From positions 160,001-224,000 of the forward strand of contig CAXXVO010000017.1 in assembly GCA_963422645.2 (NCBI GenBank): a DNA stretch of 64,000 nucleotides. Direction: 5' to 3'. This stretch comes from Alphaproteobacteria bacterium (GTDB taxonomy: Bacteria > Pseudomonadota > Alphaproteobacteria > UBA828). Shown piece by piece: positions 40,850 to 47,071 of this stretch (position 1 is its first letter; the number at the start of each line of letters is the position of its first letter). The notes below the pieces were generated by a model that saw only the letters and a program-made list of their open reading frames with translations, was not told where the DNA came from and made no database searches. Position numbers and translations under genes: made by a program.

Positions 40850-41174
40850 GCGCCGCGCGGCCGAACTTCGACCCGCACCTAAAACACCTCTCCCTGTCCC
40901 ATATGTCCGCTACGATCATAGCATACTGTAATTGCAGCCACTTTGAATTGTCAGGCGCTATCTCGCAAGCGTATCGTCAGCGGATTCATTGCAACGCTTG
41001 CGCTTTCCTGCGCGGCTTCGTCGCTGCCGGCCTGCGTATTCGTTCGGTATCCGTAAGCGTTCGTTCAGGCCGTGGAAGGGTACGCCGGCATTGTGTCCGC
41101 TCAAACGCATTCCCGACCGCGACCGCTGAGACTCTAGCGATTGAGGGGTAACCATCCGGCGTAGGCCGCCTGTA

Positions 41175-41184
41175 TGTTGTTAAG
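41175..41184 (+). repeat. Tip of an IS21-type terminal repeat, continued at 42893-42913
   Basis: TGTTGTTAAG + CGTGGAAGATTGACCCCTGAT resembles the IS21 tip TGTTGTTAAGCGTGGAAAAGTGACCCCCTAT (reverse complement ending at 37279). Confidence 0.75.
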
Positions 41185-41229
41185 CTTCCACCGGCGCGGC
41201 GCTCCGGCTCGGTCGCGGGAGTAACGGGG

Positions 41230-41445
41230 GCTTGTGTCTGCGACGCCTCGGTCGTGAACTGGCGGCGGGTGGGGTGAAGAGGCCGTTCGTGCACTGGCGT
41301 GCTGTAGCGGCACCCGCTGTTAAGCTTGGCCCGAACCATTTTGTCGGCTCCGGTCACTGATGGCGCGGGTTTCCCGCGACCTCGTTCAAGAGAATGGGAC
41401 TTCGACCATGGTTCCTCCCCGCTCGCGACGGAGATGAAAGGCGGG
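41230..41445 (+). ncRNA. Putative bridge/seek RNA of IS110 element A (boundaries approximate)
   Basis: Two parallel CACTG-hairpin-guide modules; TGTTAAGC (41318-41325) equals target, TCAAGAG (41386-41392) equals own right end. Confidence 0.65.
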
Positions 41446-41455
41446 AGGATGTTCC

Positions 41456-42874
41456 ATGGCGCGCAAGTCTCGAAGAACCCGTCGCCTCAGGGTGGTGAAC
41501 CCTGACTGCGCAGGGATCGACATCGGCAAGGACCGGCACTTCGTGGCGGTCGAGGCGGAACGCAGCGATGAGCCGGTGCGTTCGTTCGGCTCCTTTACCC
41601 GCGATCTGGCGGCGATGGCGGCGTGGCTGGCGTCGTGCGGGGTGACGAAGGTCGCAATGGAGTCGACCTCGGTCTACTGGATCCCGGTCTACGAGACGCT
41701 GGAGCGCGCGGGCTTCGAGGTGATGCTGGTGCCGCCGCGCATGACGAAGCAGATCGGCGGGCGCAAGAGCGACGTGCTGGACTGCCAGTGGATCTGGCAG
41801 CTGATGTCCTACGGTCTGCTGCGGGGAGCGTTCCGTCCGGGCGACGAGGTTTGCCCGCTGCGCTCCTACGCCCGCCAGATGAGGCGGCTGACCGAGGACC
41901 GCTCCCGCTGCGTCCTGCACATGCAAAAGGCGCTGACCGAGATGAACGTCAGGCTCGACTCGGTGATCGCCAACATCACGGGACTGACCGGCCAGCGCAT
42001 CCTGCGCGCGATCGTCGACGGCGAGCGTGACCCGGAGCGCCTGGCGACGCTCCGCCACCGGGGCATCAAGGCCGACGCCGATACGATCGCCGCGAGCCTT
42101 CAGGGGACGTGGCGCGAGGAGCATCTCTTCGCCCTCGAACAGGCCATGCAGCGCTACGACTTCCTGACCCGGCAGATCGACGACTGCGAGGCCCGGGTGA
42201 TGGCCGAGGTCGAGCGCCTGACACCGCCGGACGATCCCCCGGAGGGCGGTGCACCGGACCCTGCCCCCGGCACGACCTCGGACACCGCGTCGGGCCGCTC
42301 CGCGAACGCCGCAACCAACGACACCGGCAAGGAGGGCATCCAGCCCCTGGCGTTGCGCAAGATGATGGGCGTCGACCTCACCGCGATCCCCACCGTCGGT
42401 CCCGGTACCGCACTGGTGATCGCCTCGGAGATCGGCCCGGACTTCTCCGCCTTCCCCTCCGCTCAGCACTTCTGCTCCTGGCTTGCGCTCGCGCCGGGAA
42501 CCAGGATCAGCGGCGGCAAGAATCTCCCCGGCAAGTCGCCGAAGGCGGTCAACCCCGTCGGACAGGCCCTGCGCTTGGCGGCCATGGCCGCGCGCCGCAG
42601 CCAGACCTTCATCGGCGCCAAGCACCGCGCAAGGCTCGCCCGAATGGACACCCCCGTCGCGATCAAGGCGACCGCCCGCGAACTCGCCTGTCTGATCTAC
42701 CTCATGGTGACCGAGGGCCAGGAATACGTCGAGCAGGGCATCGGCGCCTACGAGAAGCGGCGCCTCAACAGAAAGTTCGCTCATCTCGACCGCCAAGCCC
42801 AAAAGCTCGGGTTCCAACTCATCCCGAAAACGCAAGGAGAGGAAAAACAGAACCCAATGCCGTCAATCGCTTAG
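41456..42874 (+). CDS. IS110-family recombinase/transposase (472 aa)
   Basis: GIDIGK, AMESTSVYW, KSDVLD (DEDD); C-terminal LAPGTRISGG serine motif; GGGAGG RBS. Confidence 0.93.
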   Translation: MARKSRRTRRLRVVNPDCAGIDIGKDRHFVAVEAERSDEPVRSFGSFTRDLAAMAAWLASCGVTKVAMESTSVYWIPVYETLERAGFEVMLVPPRMTKQIGGRKSDVLDCQWIWQLMSYGLLRGAFRPGDEVCPLRSYARQMRRLTEDRSRCVLHMQKALTEMNVRLDSVIANITGLTGQRILRAIVDGERDPERLATLRHRGIKADADTIAASLQGTWREEHLFALEQAMQRYDFLTRQIDDCEARVMAEVERLTPPDDPPEGGAPDPAPGTTSDTASGRSANAATNDTGKEGIQPLALRKMMGVDLTAIPTVGPGTALVIASEIGPDFSAFPSAQHFCSWLALAPGTRISGGKNLPGKSPKAVNPVGQALRLAAMAARRSQTFIGAKHRARLARMDTPVAIKATARELACLIYLMVTEGQEYVEQGIGAYEKRRLNRKFAHLDRQAQKLGFQLIPKTQGEEKQNPMPSIA

Positions 42875-43068
42875 GCATCTGTTACTCAAGAGCGTGGAAG
42901 ATTGACCCCTGATTGGAGATGCCGTAATGGGGCTTGGCGCCGGCGTGCAGCGTCTCGGCCTGTCGCGATGACGGCGAATCGGTTGTCGTTGCCCTTACAC
43001 GCGTAGCGTGTTCACGGGGTCTTGCCGCAAGGCGCGCCCCAATTCCTCTGGAGGAAAGGGCAACGACA

Positions 43069-44109
43069 ATGGACGTCTGTATCGGGCTGGATGTATCGCT
43101 GGCAAGCACGGCGGTTTGCGTTCTCGACGAGAAGGGCAAGATCGCGACCGAGGCGCAGGTCGCCAGCACGCCTGAAGCGCTGGTTGGGTTCCTGCACAAG
43201 CTGCCGCACGAGATCACCGCGATCGGTCTCGAGGCCGGTCCCTTGTCCCACTGGTTGCACAAGGGAATGACCGACGCCGGCTTCGAGGCCGTGTTGATGG
43301 AGACCCGGCAGGTAAAGGGTGCGCTGAAGGCCATGCCGATCAAGACCGATCGCCGGGACGCCGAGGGCATCGCACGGCTGTTGCTGATGGGGTGGTTTCG
43401 GCCGGTGCACTGCAAGTCGGTGTCATCGCAAGAGATGCGAGCCCTCCTGACCTCGCGCAAGTCCGTGCTGGACGCGATCATCCGCCTGGAGGTCTCGCTG
43501 CGCGGCGTCCTGCGTAACTTTGGCCTGAAGCTGGGCCTGATCTCGAAGGGCCGCTATGAGGCCCGAGTGCGGGAGTTGGTCGCCGGCAACGCGATGCTGG
43601 AAGCGGCAGCCGAACCGATCCTGGGCGCGCGGGCGGCCCTGCGCCGCGAGTTCGCCGAGCTGGAGAAGCTGGTCCGCACTCTGGCAAGGCAAGACAGGGC
43701 ATGCCGCCTGTTGATGACCATGCCGGGCGTGGGGCATGTCATAGCCCTGACCTTCAAGTCCGCGATCGACGACCCGGAGCGGTTCCGAAGATCGAAGGAT
43801 GTCGGCCCCTGGGTAGGGCTGACGCCGGCGCGGGAGCAGTCCGGGGAGAGGGATATTGTCGGCCGGATCACCAAGGCCGGCGATGCCGGTCTGCGCGCGG
43901 CTCTTTACCAAGCCGCAACGGTGATGCTGAACCGCACAGGGCCGAACTGGCTGAAGGCTTGGGCGCTACGTTTGGCGAAGCACAGGGGCAAGAAGCGCGC
44001 GACCGTTGCCTTGGCCCGGCGCATCGGTGTTGTGCTTCACCGAATGTGGCGGGATGGAACCGAGTTCCGCTTTACGCGCGAGGAAGCGATGGCGCTTCGG
44101 ACGGCATAG
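43069..44109 (+). CDS. IS110/IS1111-family recombinase/transposase (346 aa)
   Basis: IGLDVS, GLEAG, KTDRRDA (DEDD); GLTPAREQSGE serine motif; GGAGG RBS. Confidence 0.93.
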   Translation: MDVCIGLDVSLASTAVCVLDEKGKIATEAQVASTPEALVGFLHKLPHEITAIGLEAGPLSHWLHKGMTDAGFEAVLMETRQVKGALKAMPIKTDRRDAEGIARLLLMGWFRPVHCKSVSSQEMRALLTSRKSVLDAIIRLEVSLRGVLRNFGLKLGLISKGRYEARVRELVAGNAMLEAAAEPILGARAALRREFAELEKLVRTLARQDRACRLLMTMPGVGHVIALTFKSAIDDPERFRRSKDVGPWVGLTPAREQSGERDIVGRITKAGDAGLRAALYQAATVMLNRTGPNWLKAWALRLAKHRGKKRATVALARRIGVVLHRMWRDGTEFRFTREEAMALRTA

Positions 44110-44164
44110 GCGCGGCTGCATCCCATCGGCAGTCAGCGAGGAGAGGAGGAAAGAGCCGCGCCTG

Positions 44165-44360
44165 AAGGTGGGCGAGCCACCAACGTCCCCTCGCCGGGAC
44201 GCGGTCCCCGATGATGCACGTGGGCCCACTTGTTTGCCGAACCGGCCTGTCGTGTTCGAGCACGCTGTGGAGATAGGCACTCGGGAACCGATTTGGACTG
44301 GGCATGATGTTGGCAGCCGATGCGCTGACCACGGACAGAAGCGAGAACCCGGCGAAGGAC
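44165..44360 (+). ncRNA. Putative bridge/seek RNA of IS1111-type element B (boundaries approximate)
   Basis: Stem 44202-44211/44281-44290 encloses GGGCCCACT and TGGAG (target); next loop has GGCAT and ACAGAAG (donor junction). Confidence 0.75.
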
Positions 44361-44552
44361 ACAAGACGTTGAGCAAGCGCGAGATCGATACGGTCGGCCC
44401 CATTGCACCTGACACCGGCAACCTCCTCCGCGCCTCACCCGGCGCCTCATAGCCAGGCCGAAGGAGCCCCTACACCACGCCAGGAAAACAACTGATTGGC
44501 GCGACAATGATCTATTGAAAATCGAGCTTGACGGGAAACGCCCCATTACAGA

Positions 44553-44632
44553 AGTGGGCCCCTGGGGCCGGACAGTTTCAGGCGGCCGATTTGACCGGCT
44601 TGCGGGACTGCTCCTCCTCGAAACGGTCGGGG
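44553..44632 (-). mobile_element. IS3-family right-end remnant (its terminal 3 bp are at 42914-42916)
   Basis: Minus strand PDRFEEEQSRKPVKSAA* then CTGTCCGGCCCCAGGGGCCCACT|CCA, an IS3-like end; family assigned from recalled similarity. Confidence 0.6.
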
Positions 44633-44939
44633 TGTCAACGCCGGATGAAGATTCGGCCAGAGGGCGGCGCAAAAGACTGCCACTCTGGGTGATGCGTCGT
44701 TGTGACGGTTTTTCGGCGGGCGCGGTCCGTGGAGCCATCCAGAGCTCAAGCGGTCCGCGCGCGCCGGCCGACCGGAGGGCGGCCTACTGGTTTCGGTTTG
44801 TCGAGGTTCAACTTTGCGCCGTCAACGGACACGCCTGATGGCGGGATGACGGTGAGTGCCCGAGCACCGTCACGGCAGGTGGCGGGGGCTGGGGCTGGGC
44901 GCCTTGGCCGATCGGTGTCGGTCGTCGGCGTGCCGGGGT

Positions 44940-45704
44940 TCAGCTTGCGGTCTTGTTCCTGCGTGCACGGCTCTGGCTGAGGCGGTAGCTGTCGCCGTTC
45001 ATCTCGAGGATGTTGACGTGGTGGGTGAGACGATCGAGGAGCGCCCCGGTGAGGCGCTCGGAGCCAAAGGTCTCGGTCCATTCGTCGAAGGGGAGGTTGG
45101 AGGTGATCAGGGTGGCGCCCCGTTCGTAGCGCTGGGAGACCAGCTCGAACAGCAACTCGGCGCCGGTCTTGCTCAGCGGCACGAAGCCGACCTCGTCGAT
45201 GATCAGCAGCTTGAGACTTGCCAGCTGCTTCTGCAGCCGCAGCAGTCGTCATTCGTCACGCGCCTCCATGAGCTCATGCACCAGCGCCGCTGCGGTGATG
45301 AAGCGCACGCTCAGCCCCTTCTGGCAGGCGGCCAGTCCGAGCCCCAGGGCGACATGGCTCTTGCCGGTGCCCGATGGGCCGAGGGCGATGACGTTCTCGC
45401 GCCGCTCGATCCATTCGCAGCGCGCCAACTCCAGCACCCGCGGCTTGTTCAGCGCGGGCATGGCCTTGAAGTCGAAGCTGTCGAGGCTCTTGGCGAGCGG
45501 GAACTTCGCCGCCTTGATGCGCCGCTCGACCATGCGCCGTTCGCGCTCGATCAACTCCAGCTCCGCCAGCCGGGCCAGGAACTGGATATGATCCAGGCCC
45601 TCGGCCGCGCACTGGTGCGCCACTTTCTCGTATTGGCGCAGGAAGGTCGGCAGCTTCAGGGCCTTGAGGCGGTGCGCCAGCAGGATGTGGGGCGTGTCCG
45701 TCAT
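44940..45704 (-). pseudogene. istB: istB with internal stop codon
   Basis: GPSGTGKSH...EARDE*RLLRLQ...IDEVGFVP; TGA at 45249-45251. Confidence 0.88.
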
Positions 45705-47071
45705 GCCGCGTCCTCCGACAGCAGGCACATGTAGCTGGCCGCCGAGGTCCTGCCGACGGTAGCCTTCGGCAGATAGGGGTAGACATCGAGGTCGAGCTTC
45801 GGCGGGCGCTTCTCGAGGCGGCACAGCACCAGGTGCTTGACCGCGTCGAAGCCTATGGCGCCCAGGCGCAGGGCATCCTTCACTGCGGCGTGGAGATCCT
45901 CCAGCCCGAAGCTCTCCAGCAGCCGCAGGACCTGCACGTACTCCCGCCGCCCCGCCTTGAGCGCGCGTGCCTCCATCAGGCGGCGCAGGGTCTGGAAGGC
46001 GGGCGGCAGGTCCCATCCGGCGAGCGGCGCTGCCTGGTCCAGGGCGCCGATCTTCTGCTCGATCAGGGGCAGATAGTGGATCGGCTCGAAGATCATGTCC
46101 TCACGCTCATAGGACCGGGGATGGCGGGCGATGACGTCTCCGCCACAGCCGATCACCACTCGATCGACGTAACCGCGTACCCAGACGTCACGATGGCCAT
46201 AGGCCACCGGCACCGAGTAGTCGTTGGTCCGATAGCGAACCAGAGACTGCGAGCTGACCTGGCCGGGAGCCTGGTCACAGGCCTCGAAGGGCGTAGCCGG
46301 CGGCGCGGCCATGGCCGCCACATCCCGCGCCAGGCGCTCTCCGATGGTCTCGCGGTGTCCGCGCAGGATATCGCCCTGGCGGCTGTGGCATTGCTCCTCG
46401 AGCCGCAGGTTGAACTCTTCCCAGCTCGCAAACCGTGGCAGCGGCACCATGAAGTTGCGCCGGGCCAGGATGCGCGACACCAGGCAGCGGTCGTTGTCGT
46501 AGAGAACCGATCGGGGAACCCCGCCGAAGAAGGCGAAGGCATGCACATGCCCGTCCATCCACGCCTCGGCCGTCGCCGCAGGGTAGGCCCGCACGTAGCA
46601 GGCGTCGCTGTGCGGAAGATCGAACACGAAGAAGTGCGCCTTGCGCGCGATACCCCCGATCACCGCCCGCGCCTCGCCGAAGTCCGCCTGCCCATGCCCC
46701 GGCGGATGGATCAGCGGCACGAACATCTCTCGCCGCCGGCGCCGATGCTCGCGCACATGATCCTTCACAATCGTGTAGCCGCCGCTGAACCCGTGCTCGG
46801 CCCGAAGACGGTCGAAAATGCGCTTCGCCGTGTGCCGCTGCTTGGGCAGCTGCTCCAGATCGTCCCGCAGCCACCCGTCGATGATCTCGATGAACCCGTC
46901 CAGCTTCGGACGCCGAAGCGGCGCCGTCCGCCGATAGCCCGGCGGCGCCGAAAACTGCAGCATCTTCTTCACGCTCTCGCGTGAAATCCCGAAGTGACGC
47001 GCCGCAGCCCGCTCACTCATCCCGTCCCGGCAGGCGAGACGGACCTTCCGATAAAGTTCCACGGTATGCAT
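45701..47071 (-). pseudogene. istA: istA with apparent in-frame deletion in the catalytic core
   Basis: QADFGEA and YDND present, but the KGxVE motif is missing (VSRILA|RRNFMVP). Confidence 0.75.

What the first reader, a model, noticed from the sequence alone, without database searches (positions are those of the whole stretch)
42917..44552. IS1111-type recombinase whose 3' non-coding end carries guide-like matches to both its target and its own circle junction
Seen: about 440 bp of structured non-coding DNA follows the recombinase. With an AG core, the empty target reads TGG-AG-TGGGCCC and the excised-circle junction reads ACAGA-AG-ATGCC. That places the two sub-terminal IRs 10 bp apart (7+3), the geometry known for IS1111 elements. 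A loop closed by stem 44202-44211/44281-44290 holds GGGCCCACT (44222-44230, reverse complement of core plus right target) and TGGAG (44268-44272, left target plus core). The next loop holds GGCAT (44301-44305, reverse complement of the donor right side) and ACAGAAG (44335-44341, donor left side plus core). All four expected segments are present in parallel order. Established: IS110/IS1111 bridge or seek RNAs program recombination this way (Durrant et al. 2024; Siddiquee et al. 2024). Inference: this is an intact RNA-programmed recombinase, and its specificity may be new.
Basis: partly seen in the sequence, partly recalled or inferred. Interest (0 to 1): 0.9.

Follow-up and report, generated by a model that had tools for sequence, protein, structure and literature searches.

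The report
IS1111-type insertion sequence with bridge RNA
This is a complete, recently active mobile element of the IS1111 group whose 3' end encodes a guide RNA that matches both its landing site (the end of another mobile element) and its own joined ends; the mechanism is already known, so this is a clear new example and not a new kind of system.

Summary
Window 42917-44552 is a 1,636-bp IS1111-group element. It has a 346-aa DEDD recombinase, a 10-bp sub-terminal inverted repeat, a 7-bp left and a 3-bp right extension, an AG core and a 443-bp 3' non-coding region. The genome holds six 100%-identical copies and three copies of an 85%-identical variant.

Empty sites in the same genome show the target is TGG-AG-TGGGCCC, 5 bp inside the terminal inverted repeat of a 1.26-kb IS3-family element.

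The four guide-like segments lie in the loops of a four-helix RNA (about 44192-44354). Covariation supports the helices: 94.9% of cells pair, against 31-42% in slid controls. In the variant and in related elements (37 distinct guide pairs compared), the segments change together with the flanks and the element ends (0 of 10,000 permutations reach the observed match). The layout matches published IS1111 seekRNAs and bridge RNAs.

RNA expression, the circular form and activity were not shown here. Verdict: a real, probably active RNA-guided insertion sequence and a new member of a known kind. Interest is modest.

The parts
42917..44552 (+). Complete IS1111-group insertion sequence (1,636 bp)
   Evidence: Six copies at 100% identity in the own genome: four full length and two cut at the right end. 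The boundaries are fixed by empty sites.
42914..42916 (+). Left target (TGG). These are the outermost bases of the IS3-family terminal repeat that the element split.
   Evidence: All six copies have TGG here. The empty sites read TGGAGTGGGCCC.
42917..42923 (+). Left terminal extension AGATGCC (7 bp). Its first two bases are one copy of the AG core, and ATGCC is the donor right side.
   Evidence: The 7-bp rule comes from Siddiquee 2024. AGATGCC or a one-base variant is found in all 63 elements with both ends.
42924..42933 (+). Left sub-terminal inverted repeat GTAATGGGGC
   Evidence: It is a perfect reverse complement of 44540-44549 and is conserved in relatives.
43069..44109 (+). Recombinase gene (346 aa plus stop). 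It has a DEDD/RuvC-like domain, a Transposase_20 domain and the motif GLTPAREQSG.
   Evidence: Relatives align from residue 1. The nearest solved structures are ISCro4 9t56 (E 4.8e-13) and IS621 8wt6 (E 5.4e-12).
44110..44552 (+). 3' non-coding region (443 bp)
   Evidence: The left non-coding end is only 152 bp.
44192..44354 (+). Predicted bridge RNA (long seekRNA) core, about 163 nt. It is bounded by outer helix H1 (44192-44198 with 44348-44354).
   Evidence: In H1, 4 of 7 pairs show changes on both sides.
44201..44291 (+). Target-binding arm. It comprises helix H2 (44201-44219/44276-44291), an internal loop and helix H3 (44231-44241/44255-64). It matches the short seekRNA in size (about 91 nt).
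   Evidence: 96.9% of H2 cells and 93.1% of H3 cells pair, and 6 of 8 H3 pairs show changes on both sides. The size comparison uses.
44222..44230 (+). Right target guide GGGCCCACT (complement of AG+TGGGCCC, top strand)
   Evidence: In the variant it is replaced by TTTGAACC, which matches that variant's flank.
44268..44274 (+). Left target guide TGG+AG, followed by the conserved AT
   Evidence: Positions -1 to -5 before the core match the element's own left flank in 37, 33, 27, 21 and 26 of 37 elements. AGAT is present in 35 of 37.
44301..44305 (+). Right donor guide GGCAT (complement of ATGCC at the left end)
   Evidence: Elements whose left end reads ATACC carry GTAT here, and one of the three representatives with ATGCT carries AGCAT.
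44311..44331 (+). Helix H4 hairpin between the two donor guides
   Evidence: 99.6% of cells pair, and pair 150/164 changes on both sides in 11 sequences.
44335..44341 (+). Left donor guide ACAGA+AG (same sense as the right end plus core)
   Evidence: the guide agrees with the element's own right end in 36 of 37 elements, across four different states.
44528..44533 (+). TTGACG, a candidate -35 box of a promoter that is completed only when the ends are joined
   Evidence: TTGACN lies 17 nt before the hexamer formed by the last two and first four bases of the element in 37 of 43 distinct end pairs. This is an inference; no RNA data support it.
44540..44549 (+). Right sub-terminal inverted repeat GCCCCATTAC
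44550..44552 (+). Right terminal extension AGA (3 bp)
   Evidence: the 3-bp rule is.
44553..44632 (+). Core AG plus the right target TGGGCCC..., the 80-bp remnant of the IS3-family terminal repeat
   Evidence: 98.75% identical to C7:230786-230865. The IS3-family nature of the intact copy is shown.

Best explanation
Window 42917-44552 is a complete IS1111-group member of the IS110 family and was probably active recently.

Shown here by comparison:
- Its 3' non-coding region folds into a conserved four-helix structure with a multi-loop junction.
- The target-binding arm carries an internal loop. The 5' side of that loop (GGGCCCACT) is complementary to the top strand of core + right target. The 3' side (TGGAG) has the sense of left target + core, so it would pair with the bottom strand.
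- The junction strands on either side of hairpin H4 carry GGCAT (complement of the element's first bases after the core) and ACAGAAG (the sense of its last bases plus core). Together they specify the 10-bp spacer between the sub-terminal repeats of the joined ends.

Inferred from the published mechanism (Durrant 2024, Hiraizumi 2024, Siddiquee 2024):
- The element excises as a circle with abutted ends, which creates a promoter (-35 TTGACG in the right end, -10 across the junction).
- That promoter drives the recombinase gene and the downstream RNA.
- The RNA binds the DEDD/serine recombinase and bridges the circle junction to the target.
- Recombination at the AG core then inserts the element in one orientation, without a duplication.

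The target is TGG-AG-TGGGCCC, 5 bp inside the terminal inverted repeat of an IS3-family element. Either repeat of such an element can therefore be hit, and each hit splits that repeat.
For: 1. Family features. Pfam and NCBIfam hits. A 346-aa protein with the GL-P----SG motif, a 10-bp sub-terminal repeat, 7/3-bp extensions, and a 443-bp 3' against a 152-bp 5' non-coding end.

2. Recent activity. Six copies are 100% identical. All six have TGG on the left. The four with intact right ends have AGTGGGCCCCTGGGG on the right.

3. Exact boundaries. Three uninterrupted TGGAGTGGGCCCCTGGGG sites are in the same genome. Two of them are the two ends of a 1,260-bp IS3-family element. One IS3 copy on C8 carries the element in both terminal repeats.

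4. Natural reprogramming. The 85% variant (L007, L008/L009) has its target segments replaced: GTTTTGAACCC for GTGGGCCCACT and TAGATCAG for CTGTGGAG. Its flanks read GATC-AG-GTTCAAA and GTTC-AG-GTTCC. Its right end has G where this element has A, and so does its donor guide.

5. Family-wide match of guides to flanks. Of 83 loci examined, 63 had both ends, 51 had full flanks, 48 were unique sites, and these gave 37 distinct guide pairs. The right guide shares 6 or more contiguous bases with its own flank in 26 of 37, against 3.3% of 1,332 cross pairs. The left guide shares 5 or more in 25 of 37, against 6.7%. In 10,000 permutations none reached the observed sum, for either side.

6. Donor guides. 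The left donor guide agrees with the element's own right end in 36 of 37, across four states.

7. Structure. 94.9% of 1,287 cells pair, against 31-42% when partners are slid. 16 of 35 pairs change on both sides. None of 500 shuffles reached any measure.

8. The segment order matches IS1111 seekRNAs. Donor bases in a multi-loop match Durrant's description of IS1111 bridge RNAs.

9. Further copies not used in the test agree. A 91%-identical copy in a same-genus genome has the same right guide and the same right flank. Six copies in another genome sit at six sites that match their own guides in 6-9 of 9 right positions, by my count from the printed strings.
Against: - No RNA evidence. No RNA run of this organism was available, and the two metatranscriptome runs held only short contigs of relatives.
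- No sigma-70-like promoter or intrinsic terminator lies inside the linear element, so transcription is inferred.
- No circle-junction read was seen: the one raw-read run laid 0 reads, with about 1% of the run read.
- The left guide of this element matches only 3 bases plus the core, and TGGAG and GGCAT alone are no better than chance.
- 11 of 37 representatives have a right-guide match under 6, and 12 of 37 a left-guide match under 5. L012, L017, L019, L023, L030 and L037 are examples of right-guide misses.
- The per-position right-guide counts used a best-fit anchor and so lean upward.
- MFE folding of 44110-44400 alone is no more stable than shuffles (z = +1.03). The structure rests on covariation, not on energy.
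- Rfam has no matching family.
Confidence: 0.88

Rival explanations
1. The element is a genuine IS1111-type insertion sequence with a bridge-RNA gene, but it is now inactive in this genome. The copies would have spread by recombination or duplication of larger blocks and not by RNA-guided insertion.
For: The copies sit in a dense nest of other insertion sequences whose flanks are themselves repeated. Two of the six copies are cut at the right end. No circle or RNA was observed.
Against: The six copies are 100% identical and the reading frame is intact. The left flanks beyond TGG fall into several different sequence types, so at least several of the insertions are separate events. Unoccupied identical targets remain alongside the occupied ones. 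A same-genus genome holds a copy at the same kind of target.
Confidence: 0.06
2. The conserved 3' region acts as DNA, for example as recombinase-binding sites or a single-stranded DNA fold. The matches to target and ends would then work through DNA-DNA pairing and not through an RNA.
For: Nothing here shows a transcript. Compensatory changes would also preserve a DNA hairpin.
Against: G-U type pairs are frequent in the helices, and they suit RNA better than DNA. Examples are pair 21/188 with 13 G-U, 26/123 with 12 and 29/120 with 13. In related IS1111 elements, RNAs from this region co-purify with the transposase and are needed and sufficient in trans.
Confidence: 0.04
3. The four matches are coincidences in a GC-rich non-coding tail.
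For: The two 5-mers occur by chance in 47% and 36% of simulated sequences.
Against: The 9-mer occurs in 0.33% and all four together in 0.01% of simulations. Guides and flanks covary across 37 guide pairs, with 0 of 10,000 permutations reaching the observed match. The variable blocks of the family alignment fall exactly on the proposed guides.
Confidence: 0.01

Closest known systems
ISEc11 and ISXne4 (IS1111 family) and their seekRNAs (Siddiquee et al. 2024, PMC11187229; sections 4, 6, 8, 9, 10 and 13 read, plus passages from other sections through a term search)
   Same: The non-coding region is 3' of the transposase gene. The extensions are 7 and 3 bp and there is no target duplication. The top-strand complement lies 5' of the bottom-strand match. 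A close relative has exchanged target segments (natural reprogramming). The short and long RNA sizes (82 and 154 nt) compare with the 91-nt target arm and the 163-nt whole structure here.
   Different: The target here is the end of an IS3-family element. The reprogrammed pair is much closer (85% nucleotide identity, same genome) than ISEc11/ISXne4 (72% protein identity). The donor-matching segments are explicit here. No experiment was done here.
IS621 bridge RNA (Durrant et al. 2024, PMC11208160, section 12 and passages read; Hiraizumi et al. 2024, PMC11208158, passages read)
   Same: Two programmable sites, one for the target and one for the joined ends, each read on both strands around a 2-bp core. 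The recombinase is a DEDD enzyme with a conserved serine motif. The PDB sequence match to IS621 is E 5.4e-12.
   Different: IS621 belongs to the IS110 group: its RNA is in the 5' end, the guide order is reversed and the core is CT. Here the RNA is 3' and the core is AG. The donor bases lie in a multi-loop, which Durrant notes for many IS1111 members. The right donor guide is never followed by a core complement (0 of 37).
IS4321/IS5075 (Partridge and Hall 2003; seen only as a title in reference lists, the paper is not held)
   Same: IS1111-family elements that insert at a fixed position and orientation inside the terminal inverted repeats of another transposon.
   Different: Their host is the Tn21 family. 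Here the host is an IS3-family insertion sequence, and the insertion point is 5 bp from its tip.
ISEc21 (IS110 group; Siddiquee et al. 2024, passage)
   Same: It uses an IS3-family element as its landing site.
   Different: ISEc21 targets codons inside the IS3 transposase gene and has a 5' RNA. This element targets the terminal repeat and has a 3' RNA.
ISPpu9 and Ssr9 of Pseudomonas putida (PMC12288879; abstract only)
   Same: A small RNA gene lies downstream of an IS110-family transposase, and the landing site is a repeated sequence.
   Different: ISPpu9 has extra stand-alone RNA copies. Here all 9 hits to the RNA region lie inside the 6+3 element copies.

Membership tests
IS1111 group of the IS110 family | DEDD (RuvC-like) N-terminal domain plus the PF02371 C-terminal domain | tested here: met
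   PF01548 E 1.5e-16 and PF02371 E 7.4e-24. NF033542 scores 241 bits against a cut-off of 140.
IS1111 group of the IS110 family | Transposase of about 330-350 aa with a GL-P----S(t)G motif | tested here: met
   346 aa with GLTPAREQSG (translation). The motif aligns with the ISCro4 serine motif.
IS1111 group of the IS110 family | Sub-terminal inverted repeats (usually 11-13 bp; a range of 7-17 bp is quoted) | tested here: met
   10-bp perfect repeat, 42924-42933 with 44540-44549.
IS1111 group of the IS110 family | Asymmetric terminal extensions, 7 bp on the left and 3 bp on the right, with no target duplication | tested here: met
   AGATGCC and AGA. The empty sites hold a single AG.
IS1111 group of the IS110 family | The long non-coding region lies downstream of the transposase gene | tested here: met
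   443 bp downstream against 152 bp upstream.
IS1111 group of the IS110 family | One specific target, used in one orientation | tested here: met
   All 6 copies have TGG on the left, and all 4 intact right ends are followed by AGTGGGCCCCTGGGG. The right end always faces the interior of the IS3 element.
IS1111 group of the IS110 family | A circular intermediate with abutted ends that creates a promoter | tested here: inconclusive
   TTGACN lies 17 nt before the junction hexamer in 37 of 43 distinct end pairs. No junction read was seen (0 reads laid from the only raw-read run).
Bridge RNA / seekRNA | A conserved structured RNA in the non-coding end | tested here: met
   Four helices; 94.9% of cells pair against 31-42% in slid controls; 16 of 35 pairs change on both sides. 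This shows structure conservation only, not expression.
Bridge RNA / seekRNA | Two target segments, one per strand, overlapping at the core; in IS1111 the top-strand complement comes first | tested here: met
   the order criterion is.
Bridge RNA / seekRNA | Two donor segments that match the element's joined ends | tested here: met
   GGCAT with ATGCC and ACAGAAG with ACAGA+AG. They covary with the ends: 36 of 37 agree for the left donor guide.
Bridge RNA / seekRNA | The RNA is made, binds the recombinase and is required for movement | not testable with these tools
   No usable RNA data and no internal promoter or terminator consensus.
Bridge RNA / seekRNA | Changing the guides changes the site used | tested here: met
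   Natural cases only: the 85% variant, 37 guide pairs, and six sites of a third variant. No experiment was done.

The most novel reading that the evidence does not exclude
This clade may be a natural reprogramming series with a compact rule: the left target guide reads 5 bases plus the core, the right target guide 7 plus the core, the left donor guide 5 plus the core, and the right donor guide 5 with no core pairing in any member.

The constant lack of core pairing on one donor strand could be a clade-specific device that sets the direction of the reaction (insertion versus excision). IS621 uses handshake bases next to its guides to promote strand exchange.

By splitting the terminal repeats of IS3-family elements, the element may also act as a parasite of another insertion sequence and disable its hosts.
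Probability: 0.2. Interest if true: 0.5.

Novelty: new member of a known kind. Interest (0 to 1): 0.3.

Why it matters
The finding adds no new mechanism, but the case is useful for three reasons.

1. One genome holds two elements that are 85% identical. They differ by replacement of both target guides and by one matched base in the donor guide. This is a ready-made natural pair for swap experiments.

2. The family alignment, with 37 distinct guide pairs and known flanks, gives a per-position rule for how many bases each guide reads in this IS1111 clade. Less is known about this clade than about IS621.

3. The target is the tip of an IS3-family terminal repeat. This shows one mobile element homing into, and splitting, the ends of another.

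Tried and rejected
- Rfam, E-value mode, window 41000-46000: no bridge-RNA family, only one chance-level lncRNA hit.
- MFE folding of the single sequence: no more stable than shuffles (z +1.03), so energy alone gives no signal.
- A naive search for any 10-bp inverted repeat around the relatives' genes picked spurious pairs in many loci. It was replaced by end-motif searches.
- Fuzzy regex anchors for the guide positions mis-hit in many loci. They were replaced by alignment columns.
- Promoter and terminator consensus scan of 42800-44700: none found.
- Sequencing runs. The raw Hi-C run from the sample that holds the element laid 0 reads (about 1% of the run read), so it is no test for the circle junction. 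Two metatranscriptome runs held only 31-272-nt contigs, mostly of relatives; several match the scaffold up to 44221 and diverge where the right target guide begins. This is no evidence of transcription of this element.
- Plasmid collection, near mode: only three distant hits (70-73% identity), annotated 'IS110 family transposase', with no named insertion sequence.
- Search for stand-alone copies of the RNA gene in the own genome: none. All 9 hits lie inside element copies.
- Literature on an IS3 terminal repeat as an IS1111 target: one search listed 6 papers, and by title and abstract none describes it. ISfinder could not be consulted.
- Supplementary tables of Durrant 2024 and Siddiquee 2024 are closed. 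They list predicted RNAs and targets for ISfinder entries, so they may already include this element or a close relative under a name.
- The local hairpin GTCCC...GGGAC that RNAalifold proposed competes with outer helix H1. I tested H1 but did not test the hairpin separately.
Full report
WHAT IS THERE

Window 42917-44552 (+) is a 1,636-bp element. Its parts are:
- a 152-bp left non-coding end;
- a 346-aa open reading frame, 43069-44109;
- a 443-bp right non-coding end.

The protein has the two domains of IS110-family recombinases, PF01548 (E 1.5e-16) and PF02371 (E 7.4e-24). It scores 241 bits on NCBIfam NF033542, 'IS110 family RNA-guided transposase', against a cut-off of 140. Its nearest solved relatives by sequence are the bridge recombinases ISCro4 (9t56, E 4.8e-13) and IS621 (8wt6, E 5.4e-12). 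In that alignment the IGLDVS, GLEAG, KTDRRDA and GLTPAREQSG stretches line up with the corresponding stretches of ISCro4.

The ends read AGATGCC-GTAATGGGGC ... GCCCCATTAC-AGA. That is a perfect 10-bp sub-terminal inverted repeat with a 7-bp left and a 3-bp right extension. Siddiquee et al. 2024 give this geometry for IS1111-family elements, together with a 330-350-aa transposase, a GL-P----S(t)G motif and a long non-coding region downstream of the gene.

COPIES AND TARGET

The window's own genome holds six copies at 100% identity. Four are full length; two are cut at the right end, matching 1-1632 and 1-1626. It also holds three copies of a variant about 85% identical over positions 1-1447.

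All six identical copies are preceded by TGG. The four intact right ends are followed by AGTGGGCCCCTGGGG(C/T)CGG.

The same genome has uninterrupted sites reading TGGAGTGGGCCCCTGGGG at C5:89524(+), C5:90783(-) and C7:230783(+).

The two C5 sites are the two ends of a 1,260-bp element:
- it has an HTH_Tnp_1 first frame and an HTH_21/rve/rve_3 second frame;
- it has TG...CA tips and a 3-bp direct repeat;
- it is therefore an IS3-family insertion sequence.

So the target lies 5 bp inside the IS3 terminal inverted repeat. On contig C8, two copies of the element sit in opposite orientation 1,254 bp apart, one in each terminal repeat of a single IS3 copy.

In the window itself only 80 bp of the IS3 end remain to the right (44553-44632). 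Beyond that lies an IS21-like element.

THE GUIDE-LIKE SEGMENTS

In 20,000 first-order Markov simulations:
- the 9-mer appears in 0.33%;
- the 7-mer appears in 3.6%;
- the two 5-mers appear in 47% and 36%;
- all four appear together in 0.01%.

The single-sequence case is therefore suggestive only. The comparative evidence settles it.

NATURAL REPROGRAMMING IN THE SAME GENOME

The 85% variant has the same ends, except that its right end reads ...TTACGGA where this element has ...TTACAGA. Its insertion sites are unrelated to the IS3 repeat: GATCAGATC-AG-GTTCAAATG (L007) and GGAGTTC-AG-GTTCCTCG (the L008/L009 pair).

In the pairwise alignment of the two non-coding regions, the differences cluster on the two target segments:
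- GTGGGCCCACT becomes GTTTTGAACCC;
- CTGTGGAG becomes TAGATCAG.

The new segments match the variant's own flanks. TTTGAACC is the complement of GGTTCAAA, and AGATCAG has the sense of the L007 left flank plus core. The donor segment changes from ACAGAAG to ACGGAAG, which mirrors the one-base change in the right end.

FAMILY-WIDE TEST

A scan of species-representative genomes returned 80 loci encoding relatives at 65-87% protein identity. Together with the window copy, L007 and L008, that made 83 loci. L009 was dropped because it is the second half of the tandem pair. The numbers narrowed as follows:
- end motifs located both ends in 63 of 83;
- 51 of these had full flanks;
- 48 were unique sites;
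- these gave 37 distinct guide pairs, and I took the first-listed member of each.

All 63 share the AG core and near-identical ends, but their flanks are very diverse. A MAFFT alignment of the non-coding regions shows a strongly conserved scaffold with variable blocks exactly at the proposed target guides.

The test measured the longest common substring between guide region and flank:
- The right guide shares 6 or more bases with its own flank in 26 of 37, and 8 or more in 19 of 37. The figures for 1,332 cross pairs are 3.3% and 0.7%.
- The left guide shares 5 or more in 25 of 37, and 7 or more in 13 of 37. The cross-pair figures are 6.7% and 0.8%.
- None of 10,000 permutations of flanks among elements reached the observed sum, for either side.
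- The misses are real: 11 of 37 score below 6 on the right, and 12 of 37 below 5 on the left.

Per-position results:
- The five bases before the core in the left guide match the element's own left flank in 37, 33, 27, 21 and 26 of 37. The cross level is about 25%. The match falls to background from the sixth base.
- The right guide matches over the core and seven further bases (26-34 of 37). This count used a best-fit anchor and is biased upward.
- The left donor guide agrees with the element's own right end in 36 of 37, across four different states. L043 is the exception.
- The right donor guide follows left-end changes. ATACC ends go with GTAT. Of the three representatives with ATGCT ends, one has AGCAT and the other two keep a G that could wobble-pair.
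- The right donor guide is never followed by a complement of the core (0 of 37).

Loci not used in the test agree. A copy in a same-genus genome, 91% identical over the non-coding region, has the same right guide and the same right flank. Six copies of a third variant in another genome sit at six different sites. Those sites match the variant's own guides in 6-9 of 9 right positions, and five of the six left flanks end in GACCA (my count from the printed strings).

STRUCTURE

RNAalifold on the 37 sequences, plus an outer helix that I added from inspection, gives four helices:
- H1: 44192-44198 with 44348-44354
- H2: 44201-44219 with 44276-44291
- H3: 44231-44241 with 44255-44264
- H4: 44311-44317 with 44324-44331

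On the alignment, 94.9% of 1,287 cells form standard pairs, against 31-42% when partners are slid by 1-3 columns. 16 of 35 pairs show changes on both sides. No measure was reached by any of 500 shuffles.

The two target guides are the two strands of the internal loop between H2 and H3. The two donor guides are the junction strands on either side of H4. This is the multi-loop placement that Durrant et al. note for many IS1111 members. The order, with the top-strand complement first, is the one Siddiquee et al. report for IS1111 seekRNAs and is the reverse of the IS110 group. The target arm (about 91 nt) and the whole structure (about 163 nt) compare with their short (82-96 nt) and long (154 nt) RNAs.

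EXPRESSION (INFERRED ONLY)

There is no sigma-70-like promoter or intrinsic terminator inside the linear element. In 37 of 43 distinct end pairs, a TTGACN hexamer lies exactly 17 nt before the hexamer formed by the last two and first four bases of the element. That promoter would exist only in the circle or in a tandem copy. It fits the published view that the junction promoter drives both the gene and the RNA.

No RNA data for this organism could be had, and the one raw-read DNA run laid nothing.

VERDICT

This is an intact IS1111-type RNA-guided insertion sequence. The mechanism, the layout and even natural reprogramming are already published, so this is a new member of a known kind. The target (an IS3 terminal repeat), the very close reprogrammed pair and the per-position guide rule are useful details but not surprises.

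Supplementary files of the key papers could not be read and may already list this element.

Noticed in passing
window 41167-42909 (gene 41456-42874, +): A second, unrelated IS110-family element lies directly upstream. It has a 472-aa recombinase (PF01548 + PF02371; NF033542 at 260 bits) and about 290 bp of non-coding sequence 5' of the gene, which is the IS110-group layout and suggests a 5' bridge RNA. The genome holds near-identical copies on C3 and C5 and a partial one on C8.
   Followed up: partly
window 44633-46016 (minus strand): The IS3 terminal-repeat remnant is cut after 80 bp by another repeated element that carries IstB-like frames (44940-45182 and 45249-46016). The region is a nest of at least four different insertion sequences.
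   Followed up: partly
L008 3127-3145 (G000:C8, about 628715-628733): The two variant copies form a head-to-tail pair. The right end of copy 1 plus AG joins directly to position 58 of copy 2, so copy 2 lacks its first 57 bp, which include the left inverted repeat. The join follows a GGTAG in the left end, so it may be a recombination at a pseudo-core inside the element.
   Followed up: no
L005 (G000:C3:192710-194341) and L006 (G000:C8:417731-419356): Two of the six identical copies lose their last 4-10 bases inside the right inverted repeat. In L005 the break abuts an inverted copy of the GTGACCCCCTAT-type sequence that elsewhere flanks the IS3 element. This suggests that a further insertion or rearrangement disrupted the right end.
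   Followed up: no
G000:C6:185901 (minus strand): An exact 12-base match to the target (TGGAGTGGGCCC) lies outside any IS3 repeat and is unoccupied. Near-matches with one mismatch at IS3-like ends on C3, C5 and C9 are also unoccupied.
   Followed up: no
left flanks in L002-L006 and G000:C5:89480-89523, C7:230740-230782: The sequences just outside the IS3 ends are themselves repeated. They fall into two or three types, all with a (G/C)ACCCC motif 4-10 bp from the IS3 tip. The IS3-family element therefore seems to have its own preferred landing sequence, possibly the end of yet another element.
   Followed up: no
window 44188-44221, runs X19 and X20: Metatranscriptome contigs match the conserved scaffold up to 44221 and diverge exactly where the right target guide begins. 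They seem to come from relatives with other guides. DNA carry-over in these libraries cannot be excluded.
   Followed up: partly
G000 as a whole: The assembly is reported as 99.58% complete with 8.48% contamination, in 23 contigs. Copy counts of repeated elements may therefore be imprecise.
   Followed up: no
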